51,567 nucleotides of DNA from a virus (Duplodnaviria > Caudoviricetes). A program made the translations under genes and the position numbers. The stretch's first letter is position 1. Each line of letters starts with the position of its first letter. The notes beneath the pieces were generated by a model. The model searched no databases, was not told the origin of the DNA, and was given only the letters and a program-made list of their open reading frames with translations. Below are positions 1,816 to 48,652 of this stretch, one piece after another. The stretch covers positions 1-51,567 of IMG/VR virus record IMGVR_UViG_3300022913_000001; one strand, given 5' to 3'.

Positions 1816-2109
1816 ATGTTTGATTTAATTACAACAATAAACACACCTGCACTTATTCAAAAAGATGATTTAATTATCCGTCAATTAGTTACTGAATATG
1901 ACAACAAGGTTGCAGCTGCTAAAGCTGCAATTGAAACGATAAAAGACCCAAAGTTCTTTGATGAAGCTCAAGCTTTTGGTTTACTTTATGTTGCTGCAAC
2001 ACAGTACGCGTATTCATCACCTAAACCGATTTATGATGTATATAGATCTGAATATGAAAGGCTGGACGAAATAAACACGGTTTATCCCCGTGCTTACGGG
2101 GAACACTAG
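1816..2109 (+). CDS. Hypothetical protein whose last about 10 codons are CRISPR repeat sequence
   Basis: RBS AAGGA; the ORF ends TVYPRAYGEH*, which is the repeat at 2078-2106. Confidence 0.7.
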   Translation: MFDLITTINTPALIQKDDLIIRQLVTEYDNKVAAAKAAIETIKDPKFFDEAQAFGLLYVAATQYAYSSPKPIYDVYRSEYERLDEINTVYPRAYGEH

Positions 2110-2409
2110 ATTAGGTTTGATTTTCATTTTTAGCAGCGGTTTATCCCCGTGCTTACGGGGAACACAATTAATGATTTTTGCCAATCTATGCCAATAGCGG
2201 TTTATCCCCGTGCTTACGGGGAACACGGTTAGCGGTGATTTTAGAGTACAAACTCTGGCGGTTTATCCCCGTGCTTACGGGGAACACAGTTCCAGCGATT
2301 GCCTGCAAACTGCTGTATATGGTTTATCCCCGTGCTTACGGGGAACACTTCCGCAAGTTTCTTTTCTAATTGAGATGTGTCGGTTTATCCCCGTGCTTAC
2401 GGGGAACAC
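2078..2409 (-). CRISPR. Type I-E CRISPR mini-array, 6 repeats (GTGTTCCCCGTAAGCACGGGGATAAACCG on - strand) and 5 spacers, no cas genes
   Basis: 29-bp repeats at 2078, 2137, 2198, 2259, 2320 and 2381; unique spacers of 30, 32, 32, 32 and 32 bp; CCCCGT/ACGGGG hairpin; same frame as the E. coli I-E repeat GTGTTCCCCG...CGGGGATAAACCG. Confidence 0.97.
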
Positions 2410-2490: not shown

Positions 2491-2500
2491 GTGATAATTA

Positions 2501-2529
2501 ATTATAACAACTAATTTGACTATTTGCAA
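2501..2529 (-). promoter_or_regulatory. Sigma70-type promoter driving the pre-crRNA
   Basis: On the - strand, TTGCAA-17 bp-TATAAT with an extended TG, inside the phage palindromic motif. Confidence 0.8.
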
Positions 2530-2544
2530 ATTATATATTACAGT
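2516..2544 (+). promoter_or_regulatory. Divergent sigma70-type promoter for the Sel1 operon
   Basis: TTGACT-17 bp-TACAGT; predicted start near 2551. Confidence 0.65.
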
Positions 2545-2550
2545 ATAAAA

Positions 2551-2610
2551 ACTGGCTTAGGAAACGGTCGCCTTGCACCCCCTAAGCGTCGATAGCAATA
2601 TCGGCAAGGC
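2551..2610 (+). ncRNA. Candidate structured pseudoknotted 5' leader RNA, family unknown
   Basis: GC-rich island with crossing helices 2555-2561/2581-2587 and 2570-2576/2604-2610, plus a CGATA-GCAA-TATCG GNRA hairpin. Confidence 0.55.
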
Positions 2611-2654
2611 ATATCAAAACACCCCTCAAATTTCATTCATAGAATAGGAGATTT

Positions 2655-3116
2655 ATGGATACAGAAAATCAATTTAATAAAGCAATCAAGCTCTTAAAAC
2701 AAAAAAAATATACAGAAGTTTTTGATATACTTTTGAAGCTAGCTAATCAAGGACATGCTCCAGCTCAATTTCAGCTTGGCAAAATGTATGATTTAGGTAA
2801 AGGCGTAGATTTAGATCATCAGAAAGCTATTGAGTGGTACGAAAAATCAGCCGATCAAGGTTATATTAATGCTCAATTTAGCCTAGGTTCTTCATATTAT
2901 TTGGGTATAGGCGTAGAGCAAGACTACAGGAAAGCTGTTGAATGGTACACCAAAGCAGAAGAGCAAAACGATGCAGATTATAGCAAAGACGGTAAATTTT
3001 ATACTGGCGTAGACTCCATAGAATCGTTTAATTGGCACAAAGAAGCTGCAATTTCTGGGAAAAAATCAGCGTATTTTTATTTACTGGTAGATGGAGACGC
3101 AGCAAATGACTCATGA
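2655..3116 (+). CDS. Sel1-like repeat (SLR) protein 1
   Basis: AQFQLGKMYDLGKGVDLDHQKAIEWYEKSADQG repeats; RBS AGGAG. Confidence 0.93.
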   Translation: MDTENQFNKAIKLLKQKKYTEVFDILLKLANQGHAPAQFQLGKMYDLGKGVDLDHQKAIEWYEKSADQGYINAQFSLGSSYYLGIGVEQDYRKAVEWYTKAEEQNDADYSKDGKFYTGVDSIESFNWHKEAAISGKKSAYFYLLVDGDAANDS

Positions 3117-3753
3117 AAAGATGAAAGCTAAATTTAATGAAGCAGCTGCACTTCGTAAAAAATGGGAATATGAAGCAGCTTTTAATATTTTTTCTGAATT
3201 AGTAAATTATGCCCCAGCTCAAAACCAATTAGGCGAAATGCATCAAAAAGGTTTGCATGTAGAGAAAGACTACAAAGAAGCTATCAAATGCTTTACTAAA
3301 GCTGCTGATCAAGGTTTTGGCAAAGCCAATTACAATCTAGGAGTTATGCATGAAGAAGGCGAAGGCGTAGAGAAAGATAAACAAAAAGCTTTTGATTACT
3401 ACAAGCTAGGAGCTGATCAGTGTTGTGTTGAATCTCTGCACCATCTAGGATACGCATATAAAAATGGCTGGTATGGTGTAAAACAAAACTACAAGAAAGC
3501 TATTGAATATTTTACCAAAGCAGCTAATCAAGGTTATTCTTACTCTCAATATGCATTAGCTATGATGCATCACCTAGGAGAAGGTGTAGATAAAGATGAT
3601 AATAAGGCTCTTGAATTATTTAAACAAGCAGCCGAGCAAAATTATCCAACAGCTCAAGTAATGATTGATGAGATTAATAAGGAGCCGCATTGTTTTTCGA
3701 TAATGCAAAAAGAATATGATGAAGTTAAAAGGAAAAGAAAAAATGACTGCTGA
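3106..3753 (+). CDS. Sel1-like repeat protein 2
   Basis: About 4 SLRs (ANYNLGVMHEEGEGVEKDKQKAFDYY...); probable start ATG 3106 after GGAG. Confidence 0.93.
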   Translation: MTHEKMKAKFNEAAALRKKWEYEAAFNIFSELVNYAPAQNQLGEMHQKGLHVEKDYKEAIKCFTKAADQGFGKANYNLGVMHEEGEGVEKDKQKAFDYYKLGADQCCVESLHHLGYAYKNGWYGVKQNYKKAIEYFTKAANQGYSYSQYALAMMHHLGEGVDKDDNKALELFKQAAEQNYPTAQVMIDEINKEPHCFSIMQKEYDEVKRKRKNDC

Positions 3754-4690
3754 AAAAATAGAAGCTCAATTTGATAAAGCAATGGGGCTTTACAATCAAG
3801 GAGACTACAAAGACGCTTTTGATGGTTTTTTAAAGTTGGCTAATCAAGGACATCCAGAAGCTCAAAATATGTTAGGCAACATGTATGACAGGGGCGAAGG
3901 AGTAAAAATTAACGACAAAAAAGCCATTGAATGGTACACTAAAGCAGCCGAGCAAGGCGATGTAGATGCTCAATTTAATTTAGCTTTTATGCATAGAAAC
4001 GGTATTGGCACAGAAGTTAGTCACAAAGAAGCTGCAAAGTGGTACACTAAAGCAGCCGAGCAAGGCGATGTAGATGCTCAATATAATTTGGGCAAAATGT
4101 ATGAATTAGGCGAAGGTGTAGAACAAGATTACGAGCAAGCTGCTTATTGGTACACCAAGGCAGCTGATAAAGGACATATATACGCTCAAACCGACCTAGC
4201 TGATATGTACAAGCAAGGCTACGGTGTAGAGCAAGATTATAAAAAAGCTTTTGATTTGTATAGCAAAGCAGCCGAGCAAGGAAGCTCCAGCGCTAAAAGA
4301 GGGTTAGCTAGCATGTATTATAACGGTAAAGGCGTGAAACAAGATAAGCAAAAAGCCAGAAAATTGCATCAAGCAGCCGACAATAAACTAGTTCAAAATG
4401 CCAAAACCTTTGTTAATTCAGACAACAACGGAACTGAAAAAAATGTATCGGACCTAGAGTTTTACGGCAATAAAGATTCATTTCAGTTAATCTGCAAGGC
4501 AAGCTCTCAAGCAGAAGGCTGGATGAAGTCAACTAAAGCTATGGAAATCAAAGGCGTTGGATGCTTAGTGCAAGTTTCTACTCAACACGGAGCGAGTGTT
4601 GCTGAAGCATTGACTTTTGTACCAGAAATAAAAATAGCTTGGATAGATGACAGCGATCATTCTAAAGGGCGTAAATTAGTAAAAATATAG
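3743..4690 (+). CDS. Sel1-like repeat protein 3 fused to a C-terminal Acb4-like (anti-CBASS sponge) domain
   Basis: About 5 SLRs, then from about 4403 NVSDLEFYGNKDSFQLICKASSQAEGWMKSTK...GCLVQVSTQ...VAEALTFVP. The Sel1 call is firm; the Acb4 call is from recalled family motifs. Confidence 0.75.
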   Translation: MTAEKIEAQFDKAMGLYNQGDYKDAFDGFLKLANQGHPEAQNMLGNMYDRGEGVKINDKKAIEWYTKAAEQGDVDAQFNLAFMHRNGIGTEVSHKEAAKWYTKAAEQGDVDAQYNLGKMYELGEGVEQDYEQAAYWYTKAADKGHIYAQTDLADMYKQGYGVEQDYKKAFDLYSKAAEQGSSSAKRGLASMYYNGKGVKQDKQKARKLHQAADNKLVQNAKTFVNSDNNGTEKNVSDLEFYGNKDSFQLICKASSQAEGWMKSTKAMEIKGVGCLVQVSTQHGASVAEALTFVPEIKIAWIDDSDHSKGRKLVKI

Positions 4691-4696
4691 GAAAAC

Positions 4697-4963
4697 ATGG
4701 AAATTAAAAAACTAACTCCAGCAGATTTAGAAAGCCACATAGACAGCGCAAAAACTGAATTCATACACCGAGGAACATTAACTATATGCATTCTAACTTT
4801 GCATAATGATTTTTATGTTGTAGGTGAGTCTGCATGCATGAATAAGGCAGATTACAACAAGGATGTTGGCGAAGCAATGTCGTTGGGTGATGCTACCAAT
4901 AAAATATGGCAACTATTAGGGTTCCATTTAAAGCAAACAAAATACGAACAGGAAACCAAATAA
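4697..4963 (+). CDS. N4 Gp49 / Sf6 gp66 family protein
   Basis: TLTICILTLHNDFYVVGESAC...YNKDVG...A.NKIWQLLGF pattern. Confidence 0.8.
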   Translation: MEIKKLTPADLESHIDSAKTEFIHRGTLTICILTLHNDFYVVGESACMNKADYNKDVGEAMSLGDATNKIWQLLGFHLKQTKYEQETK

Positions 4964-5214
4964 TGAAAACATTTAAAGCAATCAAAAAACCGATACCAAT
5001 TGAAGTTATTCAGATTACAGAAAACAACATTGCTGATTGCAAGAAGTTTACTAGTGGCGATTTCTCTATGATTGATGATCAGATCACTATTAAAACCCTA
5101 GAGGGAACTATGACAGGTAAGATGGACGATTACATTATCAGAGGGGTTCAGGGAGAATTCTATATCTGCGATCGCGCTATATTTGAAGCAAGCTATGATA
5201 AACTTGACAGTTAA
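4963..5214 (+). CDS. Conserved small phage protein (KKP...TLEG...DYII.G..GE.Y.C...F..SY; PGDYG-like)
   Basis: Motif recognition; ATG overlaps the upstream stop (TAATG). Confidence 0.75.
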   Translation: MKTFKAIKKPIPIEVIQITENNIADCKKFTSGDFSMIDDQITIKTLEGTMTGKMDDYIIRGVQGEFYICDRAIFEASYDKLDS

Positions 5215-5271: not shown

Positions 5272-5303
5272 AGGTTTCGTTTGTAGTCGAAGCCTTTTTT
5301 TTT
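5272..5303 (+). terminator. Rho-independent terminator
   Basis: AGGTTTCG...CGAAGCCT followed by a long T-run. Confidence 0.75.
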
Positions 5304-5330
5304 GCCTAAAATTTATAATTGTTCTATAAT
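5302..5330 (+). promoter_or_regulatory. Promoter of the LuxR-like gene
   Basis: TTGCCT-17 bp-TATAAT; RBS AGGAGG before 5362. Confidence 0.65.
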
Positions 5331-6264: not shown

Positions 6265-7767
6265 ATGGCTTGGGCAGGAGGCAAGAATAGGAGAGATAAA
6301 CCAAGTCATTATAAGGCAATCATGAGCAAGAAAAAAAAGAAAAACAAACAAAGTAAAAAGCAAAACAATAATAATAACATTTCTGCTATTTATGGCGATA
6401 ATAGACGCAGAAGTTCAAGTTACACTGGTTTTAATCAATCTATCTATTCTAAATACAATGAACGCTATTCAGATAAATGGCAGATCTATTCTAGTTCTGC
6501 ATTTGCTCAAGCTTTAGTTGACAGAAAAGTCAACGACTCCATTAGAAACGGCATCAATTTTACATCATCAGATGCAACCGATCTAAACATTGATTTTAGA
6601 AAATCAAACCTATTAGACCTAATTAAAAGAGCCACAATAGAGTCTCGAATCTTTGGCGGTGCTGCAATTGTAATTGTAGAGCCAGACAAATCTCTTACGG
6701 ATGAATTTATACCAGAACTAGTTACTCCAGAATCTCAAATCATATACCATGTTTTTAACTCTGAAATTGTCAATTTAGGCGGTGATGTTCAATATAATAT
6801 ATTAGACCCCGAGTTAATTAATTCAGAGTTCTACTATATACAATTTACTAATTCACCTAATGCTAGTGACAACAATGCAGGCATTGGCAATAAAATTCAC
6901 AGAAGTAGAATAATTAAGTTTCATGGATCCGAGCTGTTATCACCGGATCTACTTACTTCATATTCTAGAATTGGTAATAATTTTTTATCTGGCAATCATT
7001 ACTTGGGTTGGGGTCGTAGTATTATACCGCCTCAATTATACGCACAAATAGAACAGTTTGATGATGTAATGGTGAAGTTATCTAAAGTAATTAAAAAAAG
7101 TAATGTGGATATTATTATTAACAAAGACCTTAGTGACGCTGGAGGGTCTGACGATTGCGACTTAAGCCGAGAGTTAATTGAATCATTTAATAGACTACAA
7201 GACGAACAGGATGCAGTGTTTCTTGCTGGAGATGCTAGTTATGATAGAAAAAGTGCCAACCTTAGCGGTTATAAAGAAGTTATGGAGTTAATGGTTCAAT
7301 ATATAACGATTCAGGAAGGCTACCCGTTAACTTATTTCCTTGGATCGCCGACACCTGGATCATTTTTAAACGGCGGCTCTCAAGATATGCAAGCTTATCT
7401 TGCAGCTGTTGCAGATATGCAAAATAAAATGAGAGCTAATCTAGATAAGTTATTGGTTATTTGGCAACTTCAAACTTACGGCAAAATATATGATGATTTG
7501 GATTATGAGTTTAATCCTTTATTCCAATCTAATCCAAAAGAAAAAGCCGAGCTAGATCAAATTGTTGCTAATACTTTAACTGGTTTATACAACAACGGTC
7601 TAGTACCAGCTAAAAACGTATTAGAAACGCTAAAAGAAAAGACAAGCATACATATTAATGATAAAAACATAAAAGAGGCAGAAGAGGCGGAAAACCTTGA
7701 TAATGAGCGTCTAAAAGAAGAAGAAGTAGCTCAAGAGAAAGCCGAAGAACAGGCGGAAAATGATTAA
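6265..7767 (+). CDS. Portal protein (DUF1073 type)
   Basis: SRIFGGAAI, KIHRSRII.F.G, GWGRS, YP.T..LG..P and YEFNPL motifs; first head gene. Confidence 0.9.
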   Translation: MAWAGGKNRRDKPSHYKAIMSKKKKKNKQSKKQNNNNNISAIYGDNRRRSSSYTGFNQSIYSKYNERYSDKWQIYSSSAFAQALVDRKVNDSIRNGINFTSSDATDLNIDFRKSNLLDLIKRATIESRIFGGAAIVIVEPDKSLTDEFIPELVTPESQIIYHVFNSEIVNLGGDVQYNILDPELINSEFYYIQFTNSPNASDNNAGIGNKIHRSRIIKFHGSELLSPDLLTSYSRIGNNFLSGNHYLGWGRSIIPPQLYAQIEQFDDVMVKLSKVIKKSNVDIIINKDLSDAGGSDDCDLSRELIESFNRLQDEQDAVFLAGDASYDRKSANLSGYKEVMELMVQYITIQEGYPLTYFLGSPTPGSFLNGGSQDMQAYLAAVADMQNKMRANLDKLLVIWQLQTYGKIYDDLDYEFNPLFQSNPKEKAELDQIVANTLTGLYNNGLVPAKNVLETLKEKTSIHINDKNIKEAEEAENLDNERLKEEEVAQEKAEEQAEND

Positions 7768-48464: not shown

Positions 48465-48518
48465 AAATTATCTCCTTTAAAATAAAATTAATTATAACAT
48501 ATTTTATATTAATTATCC

Positions 48519-48538
48519 TGTGGATAACCTGTGGATAA
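48519..48538 (-). promoter_or_regulatory. Two tandem perfect DnaA boxes (TTATCCACA)
   Basis: TGTGGATAA at 48519-48527 and 48530-48538. Confidence 0.85.
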
Positions 48539-48563
48539 CTTTTATTTTTATCTGTTAAGATTA

Positions 48564-48652
48564 TTTCTGCAAATGCAGAGTTTTGCAGAAGTTTTGCAAA
48601 GTTTTGCAAAGTTTTGCAGAAGTTTGCAGAAAAAAAAACAAATTTTGCAGAA
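48564..48652 (+). repeat. Iteron-like TTTGCA(G/A)A repeats (about 6) upstream of the initiator gene
   Basis: gttttgcagaa gttttgcaaa gttttgcaaa gttttgcagaa gtttgcagaa ... ttttgcagaa. Confidence 0.8.

What the first reader, a model, noticed from the sequence alone, without database searches (positions are those of the whole stretch)
2551..2610. Unrecognised pseudoknotted RNA at the 5' end of the Sel1/anti-defence operon
Seen: a 60-nt GC-rich island in AT-rich DNA begins at the predicted start site of the TTGACT-17-TACAGT promoter. GCUUAGG (2555-61) pairs with CCUAAGC (2581-87), and GCCUUGC (2570-76) pairs with GCAAGGC (2604-10). These two 7-bp helices cross. CGAUA-GCAA-UAUCG forms a GNRA hairpin, and ACUG/CGGU can close a first loop. 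The topology and the CCUAAGCG are reminiscent of pistol ribozymes, but the A-rich linker and GU cleavage site are absent. Inference: a new riboswitch, ribozyme or protein-binding leader, possibly coupling operon expression to a nucleotide signal.
Basis: partly seen in the sequence, partly recalled or inferred. Interest (0 to 1): 0.7.

Follow-up and report, generated by a model that had tools for sequence, protein, structure and literature searches.

The report
Orphan structured leader in marine phage
A 60-base GC-rich, strongly self-pairing stretch sits just ahead of a Sel1-repeat gene cluster in a marine phage; it is probably a folded RNA leader, but it has no known relatives, so its function cannot yet be tested by comparison.

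Summary
At 2551-2610 there is a 57% GC island in a 34% GC, complete 51.6-kb marine phage genome. It is the only such island outside coding sequence and the CRISPR array. Both 7-bp helices, their crossing and the GCAA hairpin are at the stated coordinates. Only 4 of 5000 dinucleotide shuffles of the island give two crossing 7-bp helices. The + strand folds better than shuffles (z -2.1 to -2.9); the - strand does not (z about 0).

No Rfam family matches, even at E<=10. No homologue turned up in the viral, metagenome, genome, phage or plasmid collections. Three other seawater runs carry the island unchanged where they cover it. Covariation is therefore untestable here.

A nested two-hairpin fold (-21 kcal/mol) and the pseudoknot are about equal in energy. 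The promoter is only a consensus match, and such matches are at chance frequency.

Best reading: a cis-acting structured 5' leader of a discrete Sel1 operon (2655-5214, terminator at 5272). Main rival: a - strand terminator or insulator upstream of the CRISPR promoter. The riboswitch and ribozyme readings remain unsupported speculation. Interest is modest.

The parts
2551..2610 (+). GC-rich self-complementary island (the finding); 57% GC
2555..2587 (+). Hairpin 1. Outer helix H1 is 2555-2561 with 2581-2587 (7 bp). In the MFE fold an inner stem 2566-2568/2577-2579 plus 2570-2571/2575-2576 is added.
2570..2610 (+). Helix H2: 2570-2576 with 2604-2610 (7 bp, stacking -15.2 kcal/mol). It crosses H1. 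It excludes the inner stem of hairpin 1 and the two outer pairs of the extended hairpin 2.
2588..2605 (+). Hairpin 2: 5-bp core 2590-2594/2599-2603 with a GCAA tetraloop. On the + strand RNA alone it extends to 7 bp through a U-G pair (2589-2604) and a G-C pair (2588-2605).
2516..2544 (+). Sigma-70-like promoter match TTGACT-17-TACAGT (9 of 12). It predicts a start near 2551. Not statistically supported.
   Evidence: 4 matches in the region against 4.5 expected
2610..2641 (+). 32-nt G-free, A/U/C-rich linker between the island and the ribosome-binding site
   Evidence: read
2646..2657 (+). Shine-Dalgarno AGGAG (2646-2650) and the ATG (2655) of the first Sel1 ORF
2655..5214 (+). Downstream operon: Sel1 ORFs 2655-3116, 3091-3753 and 3716-4690; ORF 4697-4963 (Phage_gp49_66); ORF 4906-5214 (phrog_419)
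5272..5305 (+). Intrinsic terminator-like site (8-bp stem followed by a run of T) that closes the operon
2491..2508 (.). One copy of the phage's 18-nt palindromic promoter motif (one mismatch)
   Evidence: 12 sites against 0.18 expected
2501..2529 (-). Promoter TTGCAA-17-TATAAT (10 of 12, with TG) that drives the CRISPR array leftwards
2078..2409 (-). CRISPR mini-array without cas genes: six 29-nt repeats of type I-E kind and five spacers. Orientation is inferred from the recalled I-E repeat consensus.
2545..2587 (-). Rival reading: a - strand hairpin (2587 to 2555, -12.7 kcal/mol), then CAG, then UUUUUAU (2551 to 2545), ending 15 nt upstream of the -35 of the CRISPR promoter

Best explanation
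The island is a compact structured RNA domain at or near the 5' end of the mRNA of a discrete Sel1-repeat operon. The layout is: promoter near 2516-2544, leader 2551-2654, ORFs 2655-5214, terminator at 5272.

On the + strand it folds into two abutting hairpins. These are H1 with an inner stem, and a GCAA-capped hairpin. A third 7-bp complementarity (H2) can convert this into an H-type pseudoknot of about equal predicted stability. A 32-nt G-free single-stranded linker then leads to the ribosome-binding site.

Most likely it acts in cis on its own transcript. A hairpin about 4 nt from the 5' end would protect the message from 5'-end-dependent decay. It could also be the docking site of a protein that controls the operon. 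Which of these applies is inference.

Shown: the element's reality, its non-coding status on the + strand, its strand-asymmetric folding, and its orphan status.
Inferred: transcription from 2551, the fold and the function.
For: 1. It is the only non-coding, non-CRISPR GC island in the genome (against the ORFs).
2. Self-complementarity is far beyond composition: 4 of 5000 shuffles give crossing 7-bp helices and 1.4% give two 7-bp helices.
3. Folding is strand-asymmetric. The + strand has z -2.33, -2.11 and -2.89; the - strand has z -0.27, 0.02 and -0.38. The + strand alone gains the GNRA loop and the G-U pairs that extend hairpin 2 to 7 bp.
4. All three + frames are closed across it, and it lies between the nearest promoter-like sites and the first Sel1 start. 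Any transcript that expresses the operon must therefore carry it.
5. The other rightward copies of the phage's promoter motif sit 21-33 nt from a start codon. Here 146 nt intervene, so the island is an insertion specific to this unit.
6. The operon is a self-contained unit closed by a strong terminator.
7. The island is unchanged in contigs of two further runs that span it (X2 2521-2877, 0 differences; X4 2381-2710, 1 difference, at 2449). A third run covers its 3' part (X3 2580-2929, 0 differences).
Against: - No covariation evidence is possible, because there are no homologues and no variants.
- Transcription is not shown. No RNA run holds the sequence.
- Promoter-like matches are at chance frequency.
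- The nested MFE z-scores are only moderate: 1-3% of shuffles fold as well.
- All Watson-Crick helices exist equally on the - strand and in DNA.
- On the - strand the outer hairpin is followed by a short U run, in the slot where 4 of the 7 other leftward cassettes carry a terminator.
- No expression platform links the island to the ribosome-binding site. The weak hairpin around the site is independent of the island.
- The invariance in other runs may only mean that those are the same strain.
Confidence: 0.4

Rival explanations
1. A - strand intrinsic terminator or insulator. It would belong to the terminator-promoter cassette that drives the CRISPR mini-array and would shield that promoter from leftward read-through. 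On this reading the + strand structure is incidental.
For: - Read on the - strand, the H1 hairpin (-12.7 kcal/mol, within the -11.5 to -14.6 range of three of this phage's own terminators) is followed by CAG-UUUUUAU. That run ends 15 nt before the -35 TTGCAA.
- In 4 of the 7 other leftward cassettes (36750, 40885, 42523, 43468) a U-run terminator element ends 9-10 nt before the -35. The 36750 hairpin folded weakly (-4.5 kcal/mol).
- GC-rich islands in AT-rich intergenic DNA are typically terminators (general knowledge).
Against: - The phage's own terminators are short perfect 6-9-bp stems with 4-5-nt loops and 7-10 U directly after the stem. This one is a 33-nt irregular hairpin with a 3-nt spacer and 5 U. 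The tool's scan did not list it.
- The - strand MFE is no better than shuffles (z -0.27, 0.02, -0.38).
- There is no ORF of 90 aa or more on the - strand between 2655 and 36148 that looks like a gene whose transcript would need stopping. The six listed there lie inside longer + strand ORFs.
- It does not explain hairpin 2 or H2.
Confidence: 0.2
2. One reading: a new pseudoknotted riboswitch or self-cleaving ribozyme that couples the operon to a small-molecule (nucleotide) signal.
For: - Two perfect crossing 7-bp helices plus a GNRA hairpin.
- The loops are sterically adequate for an H-type pseudoknot (8, 4 and 16 nt; read).
- The pseudoknot and nested folds are about isoenergetic, as expected of a switch.
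- It has a 5' UTR position and matches no known family.
Against: - There is no conservation or covariation data at all.
- Riboswitch and ribozyme classes are normally recurrent, yet this sequence is unique in every collection searched.
- No terminator or anti-Shine-Dalgarno expression platform is coupled to it.
- The downstream genes are Sel1 repeats and unknown phage families. They have no metabolic or signalling link that would suggest a ligand.
- No Rfam ribozyme or pseudoknot riboswitch model matches at E<=10.
Confidence: 0.08
3. A DNA-level element or a captured relic. Examples are a protein-binding or recombination site, or a fragment of a host repetitive intergenic (REP/MITE-like) element or gene brought in with the array or the Sel1 cassette, with no RNA function of its own.
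For: - Its GC content is foreign to the phage.
- It lies at the junction of two probable acquired cassettes, the CRISPR array and the Sel1 genes.
- The helices are pure Watson-Crick and so exist in DNA too.
- Weak resemblance to the left arm of a roughly 170-nt multi-copy intergenic repeat found in 25 of 151 genomes of the family of the Shewanellaceae genome that shares the CRISPR repeat. The layout is the same: outer helix, inner hairpin, second hairpin, similar 3' tail.
Against: - That resemblance is not significant. A profile of 12 copies hits the island at E=0.16 and 6.5 bits, and the repeat family was found by searching with the island itself.
- No match in the three genomes that carry the identical CRISPR repeat (best E 0.41).
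- No match above chance in 401 genomes of that order (4 at E<=0.01).
- No match in the leader flanks of five host arrays.
- The - strand frames give no Pfam hit. The 32-aa - strand ORF has only two hits, at E about 6e-5, to 745- and 1074-aa proteins.
- The spacings of the long inverted repeats (19 and 27 bp) are unlike simple operators.
Confidence: 0.2
4. A chance island with no function.
For: - It was picked post hoc from a whole genome.
- It is a single occurrence.
- The nested MFE is only moderately unusual.
Against: - 4 of 5000 composition-matched shuffles reproduce the crossing helices.
- A 57% GC stretch in non-coding DNA of a 34% GC phage should decay unless it is recent or selected (inference).
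Confidence: 0.1

Closest known systems
Pistol self-cleaving ribozyme (Rfam RF02679)
   Same: A small RNA with a hairpin and a crossing helix.
   Different: No match to the family model at E<=10 on either strand. It is not a member.
HK022 put RNA (cis-acting antiterminator RNA)
   Same: Two stem-loops placed just downstream of a phage promoter and acting without a dedicated protein. From passages of PMC9378689: put RNAs are about 70 nt, have two stem-loops, and putL lies just downstream of PL. Here two abutting hairpins span 51 nt starting 4 nt from a predicted start.
   Different: - Shorter.
- No put sequence was on hand to compare.
- The operon is only 2.7 kb, and my scan found no + strand terminator-like site between the island and the 5272 terminator that closes the operon. 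It would matter only if read-through of the 5272 terminator into the structural genes is wanted.
Phage T4 gene 32 leader pseudoknot (translational operator); recalled, no call
   Same: A 5'-proximal H-type pseudoknot followed by an unstructured, purine-poor stretch that runs to the ribosome-binding site.
   Different: In T4 the regulated gene encodes the single-strand-binding protein that binds the leader. Here the downstream products are Sel1-repeat proteins with no known nucleic-acid binding. No sequence comparison was made.
5'-terminal stabiliser hairpins of bacterial mRNAs (ompA type); recalled, no call
   Same: A stable hairpin within a few nucleotides of the 5' end. The predicted start is 2551 and the stem begins at 2555.
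   Different: A single simple hairpin suffices for that role. The extra crossing complementarity and the second hairpin are unexplained by it.
Intrinsic terminators of this phage's own cassettes
   Same: A GC-rich hairpin plus a U run upstream of a TTGCAA -35 on the - strand.
   Different: An irregular 33-nt hairpin, a 3-nt spacer and only 5 U, against perfect short stems with 7-10 U.

Membership tests
Any Rfam 15 family (4227 models) | Score at or above the family's gathering threshold | tested here: not met
   0 matches in the whole window. At E<=10 there are 0 matches in 2545-2660. In 2400-2700 there are 2 weak matches (E 3.1 and 4.6), both at 2416-2531 and outside the island.
Pistol ribozyme (RF02679) | Match to the covariance model (hairpin-loop pseudoknot with its conserved nucleotides) | tested here: not met
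   No match at E<=10.
Pistol ribozyme (RF02679) | Self-cleavage at a defined linkage | not testable with these tools
   Needs an in vitro transcript.
H-type pseudoknot riboswitches in Rfam (preQ1-I/II/III, SAM-II, SAM-V, fluoride, guanidine-III; names recalled) | Match to any of these covariance models | tested here: not met
   No Rfam match of any kind over the island at E<=10.
HK022 put RNA | About 70 nt, two stem-loops (PMC9378689, passages) | tested here: inconclusive
   The MFE has two abutting hairpins spanning 2555-2605 (51 nt). This is a prediction only.
HK022 put RNA | Lies downstream of an early promoter and suppresses downstream terminators in cis | not testable with these tools
   The promoter is only a consensus match at chance frequency. 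The first strong downstream + terminator is at 5272.
HK022 put RNA | Sequence similarity to putL or putR | not tested
Intrinsic (factor-independent) terminator, - strand | Stable GC-rich hairpin | tested here: met
   -12.7 kcal/mol for 2587 to 2555 on the - strand.
Intrinsic (factor-independent) terminator, - strand | U tract directly after the stem | tested here: inconclusive
   A 3-nt spacer (CAG) then UUUUUAU. The consensus scan does not list it. The phage's own terminators have 7-10 U abutting the stem.
CRISPR repeat-like RNA (solitary repeat, RNA anti-CRISPR or cr-like RNA) | Recognisable similarity to the repeat, including its stem | tested here: not met
   The best local match to the array's repeat is 9 of 10 nt. 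It is reached by 9% of 3000 shuffles, and the 3' half of the repeat stem is absent.
Protein-coding sequence | An open frame with relatives | tested here: not met
   The + frames are all closed. The 32-aa - strand ORF has no Pfam hit at E<=10. Among 1.84 billion proteins it has 2 hits at E about 6e-5, to proteins of 745 and 1074 aa.

The most novel reading that the evidence does not exclude
A previously unseen class of small pseudoknotted cis-regulatory RNA (a ligand- or protein-sensing switch, or a self-cleaving ribozyme) that gates a phage accessory operon placed back to back with a phage-borne CRISPR mini-array. It would be so far represented by a single lineage of marine phages.
Probability: 0.08. 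Interest if true: 0.75.

Novelty: new member of a known kind. Interest (0 to 1): 0.3.

Why it matters
If the island is a working leader RNA, it would be a compact pseudoknot-capable domain controlling a phage accessory operon that sits back to back with a hijacked CRISPR array. That would be a small, tractable model for how phages time or tune such cargo.

As it stands it is one orphan sequence. It cannot support a new RNA class until relatives or experiments exist. It is a candidate worth a cheap bench test rather than a discovery.

Tried and rejected
- **Rfam:** whole window at gathering scores and two local scans at E<=10. Nothing lies over the island.

- **Homologue hunts for the island.** All were empty or at chance level.
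  - blastn against phages with a 1.2-kb query and a 116-nt query, and against plasmids.
  - Exact or N-gapped patterns in viral contigs, genome contigs and metagenome contigs.
  - Covariance model R1, built from the single sequence, run on the window and 20 loci. It gave only the island itself plus two hits at E 0.73-1.1.
  - BLAST in the 3 genomes that hold the identical CRISPR repeat (best E 0.41).
  - BLAST in 401 genomes of that order. Four genomes reached E<=0.01, about what chance gives for 401 genomes.

- **R1 on 151 genomes of that family:** 11 genomes had E<=0.01.
  - I examined the 8 loci that were fetched. Seven lie inside open frames of 224 aa or more belonging to unrelated genes. 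They share mainly the 14-nt palindrome of hairpin 2.
  - By bit score (33 or less) they are at chance level for about 1.4 billion bases searched.
  - The eighth (L031) is a roughly 170-nt multi-copy intergenic repeat, present in 25 of 151 genomes, with no Rfam family. A profile of 12 copies hits the island as the best place in the window, but only at E=0.16. I rejected it as evidence and kept it as a weak lead.

- **Relatives through proteins.**
  - The first Sel1 ORF has no relative above 48% identity (13 proteins at E<=1e-10 including itself).
  - It has 2 weak viral loci, neither with the island.
  - The portal protein finds one 3.5-kb viral fragment that does not reach the region.
  - The portal also finds an 86%-identical protein on a 51,225-nt contig.

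- **The 18-nt promoter palindrome** finds 11 viral contigs with one site each. None is a relative and none has the island.

- **Sequencing runs.**
  - No RNA holder is listed.
  - Contigs of X2, X3 and X4 show no change in the island where they cover it.
  - X3 has no cover for about 2532-2579, and X5 has none before 2686. I draw nothing from those gaps.

- **Ideas rejected.**
  - Remnant of a host cas gene or leader flank: no similarity to five host array loci.
  - Broken AraC-type gene on the - strand: read through with X at the stop, no Pfam hit at E<=10.
  - Micro-ORF of 32 aa.
  - Repeat-like RNA.
  - Self-targeting by the array's spacers: no match to the island. The best match elsewhere is 14 nt, at 6599-6612.
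  - A second copy in the phage: the best other match is 11 nt.
  - put-like antitermination, kept only as a resemblance: the operon is short and is closed by its own terminator.

- **Papers.**
  - Search listings only.
  - Passages read in PMC4496710 (nothing on put), PMC11658703 (RNA antiterminators and insulators in mobile elements) and PMC9378689 (features of put RNA).
  - No supplements were seen.
  - I did not find the island or a Sel1-linked RNA motif in print. That rests only on search.

Full report
**What the window is.** The window is a whole virus record of 51,567 bases with direct terminal repeats, rated 100% complete. It is 34% GC. Near-identical DNA occurs in contigs of seawater, marine and sponge metagenome runs from 16 studies.
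- Portal and head genes follow from 6265.
- RecT, exonuclease, helicase and replication-loader genes lie at 42.6-50.3 kb.
- No integrase was seen among the 30 ORFs I scanned. That is not the whole genome.

**Surroundings of the finding.**
- Immediately to the left is a CRISPR mini-array of six identical 28/29-nt repeats at 2078-2409.
- By the recalled type I-E repeat consensus the array is read on the - strand.
- The exact repeat occurs in four Xenorhabdus genomes and in a Shewanellaceae metagenome-assembled genome.
- The array is driven by TTGCAA-17-TATAAT (2529 to 2501, 10 of 12, with TG).
- That promoter is embedded in one of 12 copies of an 18-nt palindrome, of which 0.18 copies would be expected by chance.
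- The palindrome marks the phage's terminator-promoter-RBS cassettes.
- To the right, a Shine-Dalgarno site and the ATG at 2655 open three Sel1-repeat ORFs, a Phage_gp49_66 ORF and a phrog_419 ORF.
- A strong + strand terminator at 5272-5295 plus a run of T closes them.
- The Sel1 genes therefore form a discrete unit of about 2.7 kb, and the island lies in its only possible leader.

**The observation.**
- The island reaches 57% GC against a genome mean of 34% (sd 7%) for 60-nt windows.
- It is the only one of 20 high-GC runs that is neither in the array nor in a long ORF.
- The two perfect 7-bp helices cross. Among 11 crossing pairs in the genome it is the only GC-rich one.
- Crossing pairs as such are not enriched: Markov simulations give a mean of 6.15, and 18 of 100 reach 11.
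- Given the island's own composition the arrangement is rare. 5.7% of 5000 dinucleotide shuffles have one 7-bp helix, 1.4% have two, and 0.08% have a crossing pair.

**Strand and fold.**
- The nested minimum-energy fold of the + strand has hairpin 1 (H1 plus an inner stem) abutting hairpin 2 (a GCAA loop, 7 bp with a U-G pair), at -21.0 kcal/mol.
- It beats shuffles moderately: z -2.33, -2.11 and -2.89, with 1-3% of shuffles folding as well.
- It ranks fifth of 5151 windows.
- The - strand does not beat shuffles: z -0.27, 0.02 and -0.38.
- The pseudoknot (H1 + H2 + 5-bp hairpin 2) sums to about -32.6 kcal/mol of stacking and hairpin energy.
- I applied a recalled pseudoknot initiation penalty of about 9.6 kcal/mol plus small loop terms. 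This puts the pseudoknot near -21 kcal/mol as well.
- This is my estimate, not a tool result. The two folds cannot be ranked.
- Loop lengths of 8, 4 and 16 nt are adequate for an H-type knot (general knowledge).
- Downstream, 32 nt are free of G. The ribosome-binding site sits in a weak A/U hairpin that is independent of the island.

**Is it known?** No Rfam 15 family matches on either strand, even at E<=10 in a 116-nt scan. It is not a pistol ribozyme, nor any catalogued pseudoknot riboswitch, by their models.

**Does it have relatives?** I found none in any collection I could search. Every search and its outcome is listed under Tried and rejected. The points that shape the reading are these.
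- A single-sequence covariance model gave hits in 11 of 151 genomes of the Shewanellaceae family. Seven of the 8 loci examined lie inside unrelated long open frames.
- The eighth is a roughly 170-nt multi-copy intergenic repeat (25 of 151 genomes). Its left arm has a similar layout, but its profile reaches the island only at E=0.16. That is not evidence.
- The phage group itself is rare. One 3.5-kb viral fragment and an 86%-identical portal on a 51,225-nt contig are all I found.
- Contigs of three other runs show the island unchanged where they cover it. X2 covers 2521-2877 and X3 covers 2580-2929, each with 0 differences. X4 covers 2381-2710 with 1 difference, at 2449.
- So there is no variation on which to test pairing.

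**Transcription.** No RNA run holds the sequence (no inference is drawn from this).
- The TTGACT-17-TACAGT promoter is a 9-of-12 match in a region where such matches occur at chance frequency.
- A second candidate is the + face of the palindrome: GTTACA-17-GATAAT at 2470-2498, also 9 of 12.
- That would start transcription near 2505 and place the island inside a leader of about 150 nt, rather than at its end.
- At three of the other rightward copies of the motif (414, 25017, 45802) the start codon follows within 21-33 nt. Here it follows after 146 nt.
- The island is therefore an extra feature of this unit.

**The main rival.**
- On the - strand the H1 hairpin (-12.7 kcal/mol) is followed by CAG-UUUUUAU, which ends 15 nt before the -35 of the CRISPR promoter.
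- In 4 of the 7 other leftward cassettes a U-run terminator element ends 9-10 nt before the -35.
- Those terminators are short perfect stems with 7-10 U abutting them. This element is irregular, spaced and U-poor.
- There is no plausible - strand gene for 33 kb to its right.
- The - strand fold is unremarkable.
- The reading leaves hairpin 2 and H2 unexplained.
- I give it 0.2.

**Other ideas tested and dropped.** All were negative; details are under Tried and rejected.
- Coding sequence on either strand.
- A repeat-like RNA.
- A spacer target or a second copy in the phage.
- A leader for a phage CsrA-like protein.
- A host cas or leader remnant.

**Verdict.** It is a real, unusual and unique element. 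It is most likely a structured cis-acting 5' leader of the Sel1 operon (0.4). The mechanism, either 5'-end protection or a protein or ligand operator, is inferred rather than shown. The riboswitch or ribozyme reading stays possible (about 0.08) but has nothing specific in its favour. Without relatives or experiments the finding cannot be raised further. Interest: 0.3.

Noticed in passing
window 2078-2409 (- strand): The phage's CRISPR mini-array has no cas genes. Its repeat is letter-for-letter the repeat of arrays in four Xenorhabdus genomes and in a Shewanellaceae metagenome-assembled genome of 37% GC. This gives a clue to the host. The five spacers are 27-47% GC and have no strong match within the phage.
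   Followed up: partly
window, 12 sites: 414, 2491, 24929, 25017, 36750, 38862, 40885, 42523, 43468, 44646, 45802, 48481: An 18-nt palindrome carries a TATAAT hexamer (12 sites against 0.18 expected). In the leftward early region it sits in repeated cassettes: a UUCG- or UUCAU-loop terminator with 7-10 U, then 9-10 nt, then TTGCAA/T, then the palindrome, then an RBS.
   Followed up: partly
window 48499-48632: Two tandem copies of TGTGGATAA lie just after the palindrome at 48481. From memory this looks like the reverse of a DnaA box. The most stable + strand 62-nt fold in the genome is at 48561-48632 (-27.1 kcal/mol at 34% GC). Both are at the start of the replisome-organiser gene. This is a candidate replication origin.
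   Followed up: no
window 2710 onward, run X4: A contig of run X4 matches 2381-2710 with one change. It then continues for 54 letters unlike the window, inside the first Sel1 gene. Either the Sel1 genes are mosaic between strains, or the assembly graph branches in the repeats.
   Followed up: no
L031 1490-1660 (G446) and loci L047-L076: A roughly 170-nt intergenic repeat occurs at 5 or more copies per genome in 25 of 151 genomes of one gammaproteobacterial family. Its 63-nt core is more widespread. It has several hairpins and terminal inverted repeats and matches no Rfam family. It looks like a MITE or REP-like element.
   Followed up: partly
   Followed up: partly
window 2541-2636 (- strand): A 32-codon open frame runs through the island on the - strand, and its stop overlaps the + strand -10 hexamer. 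It has no Pfam hit. Its only two hits are marginal, to long repetitive-looking proteins. It is probably not a gene.
   Followed up: yes
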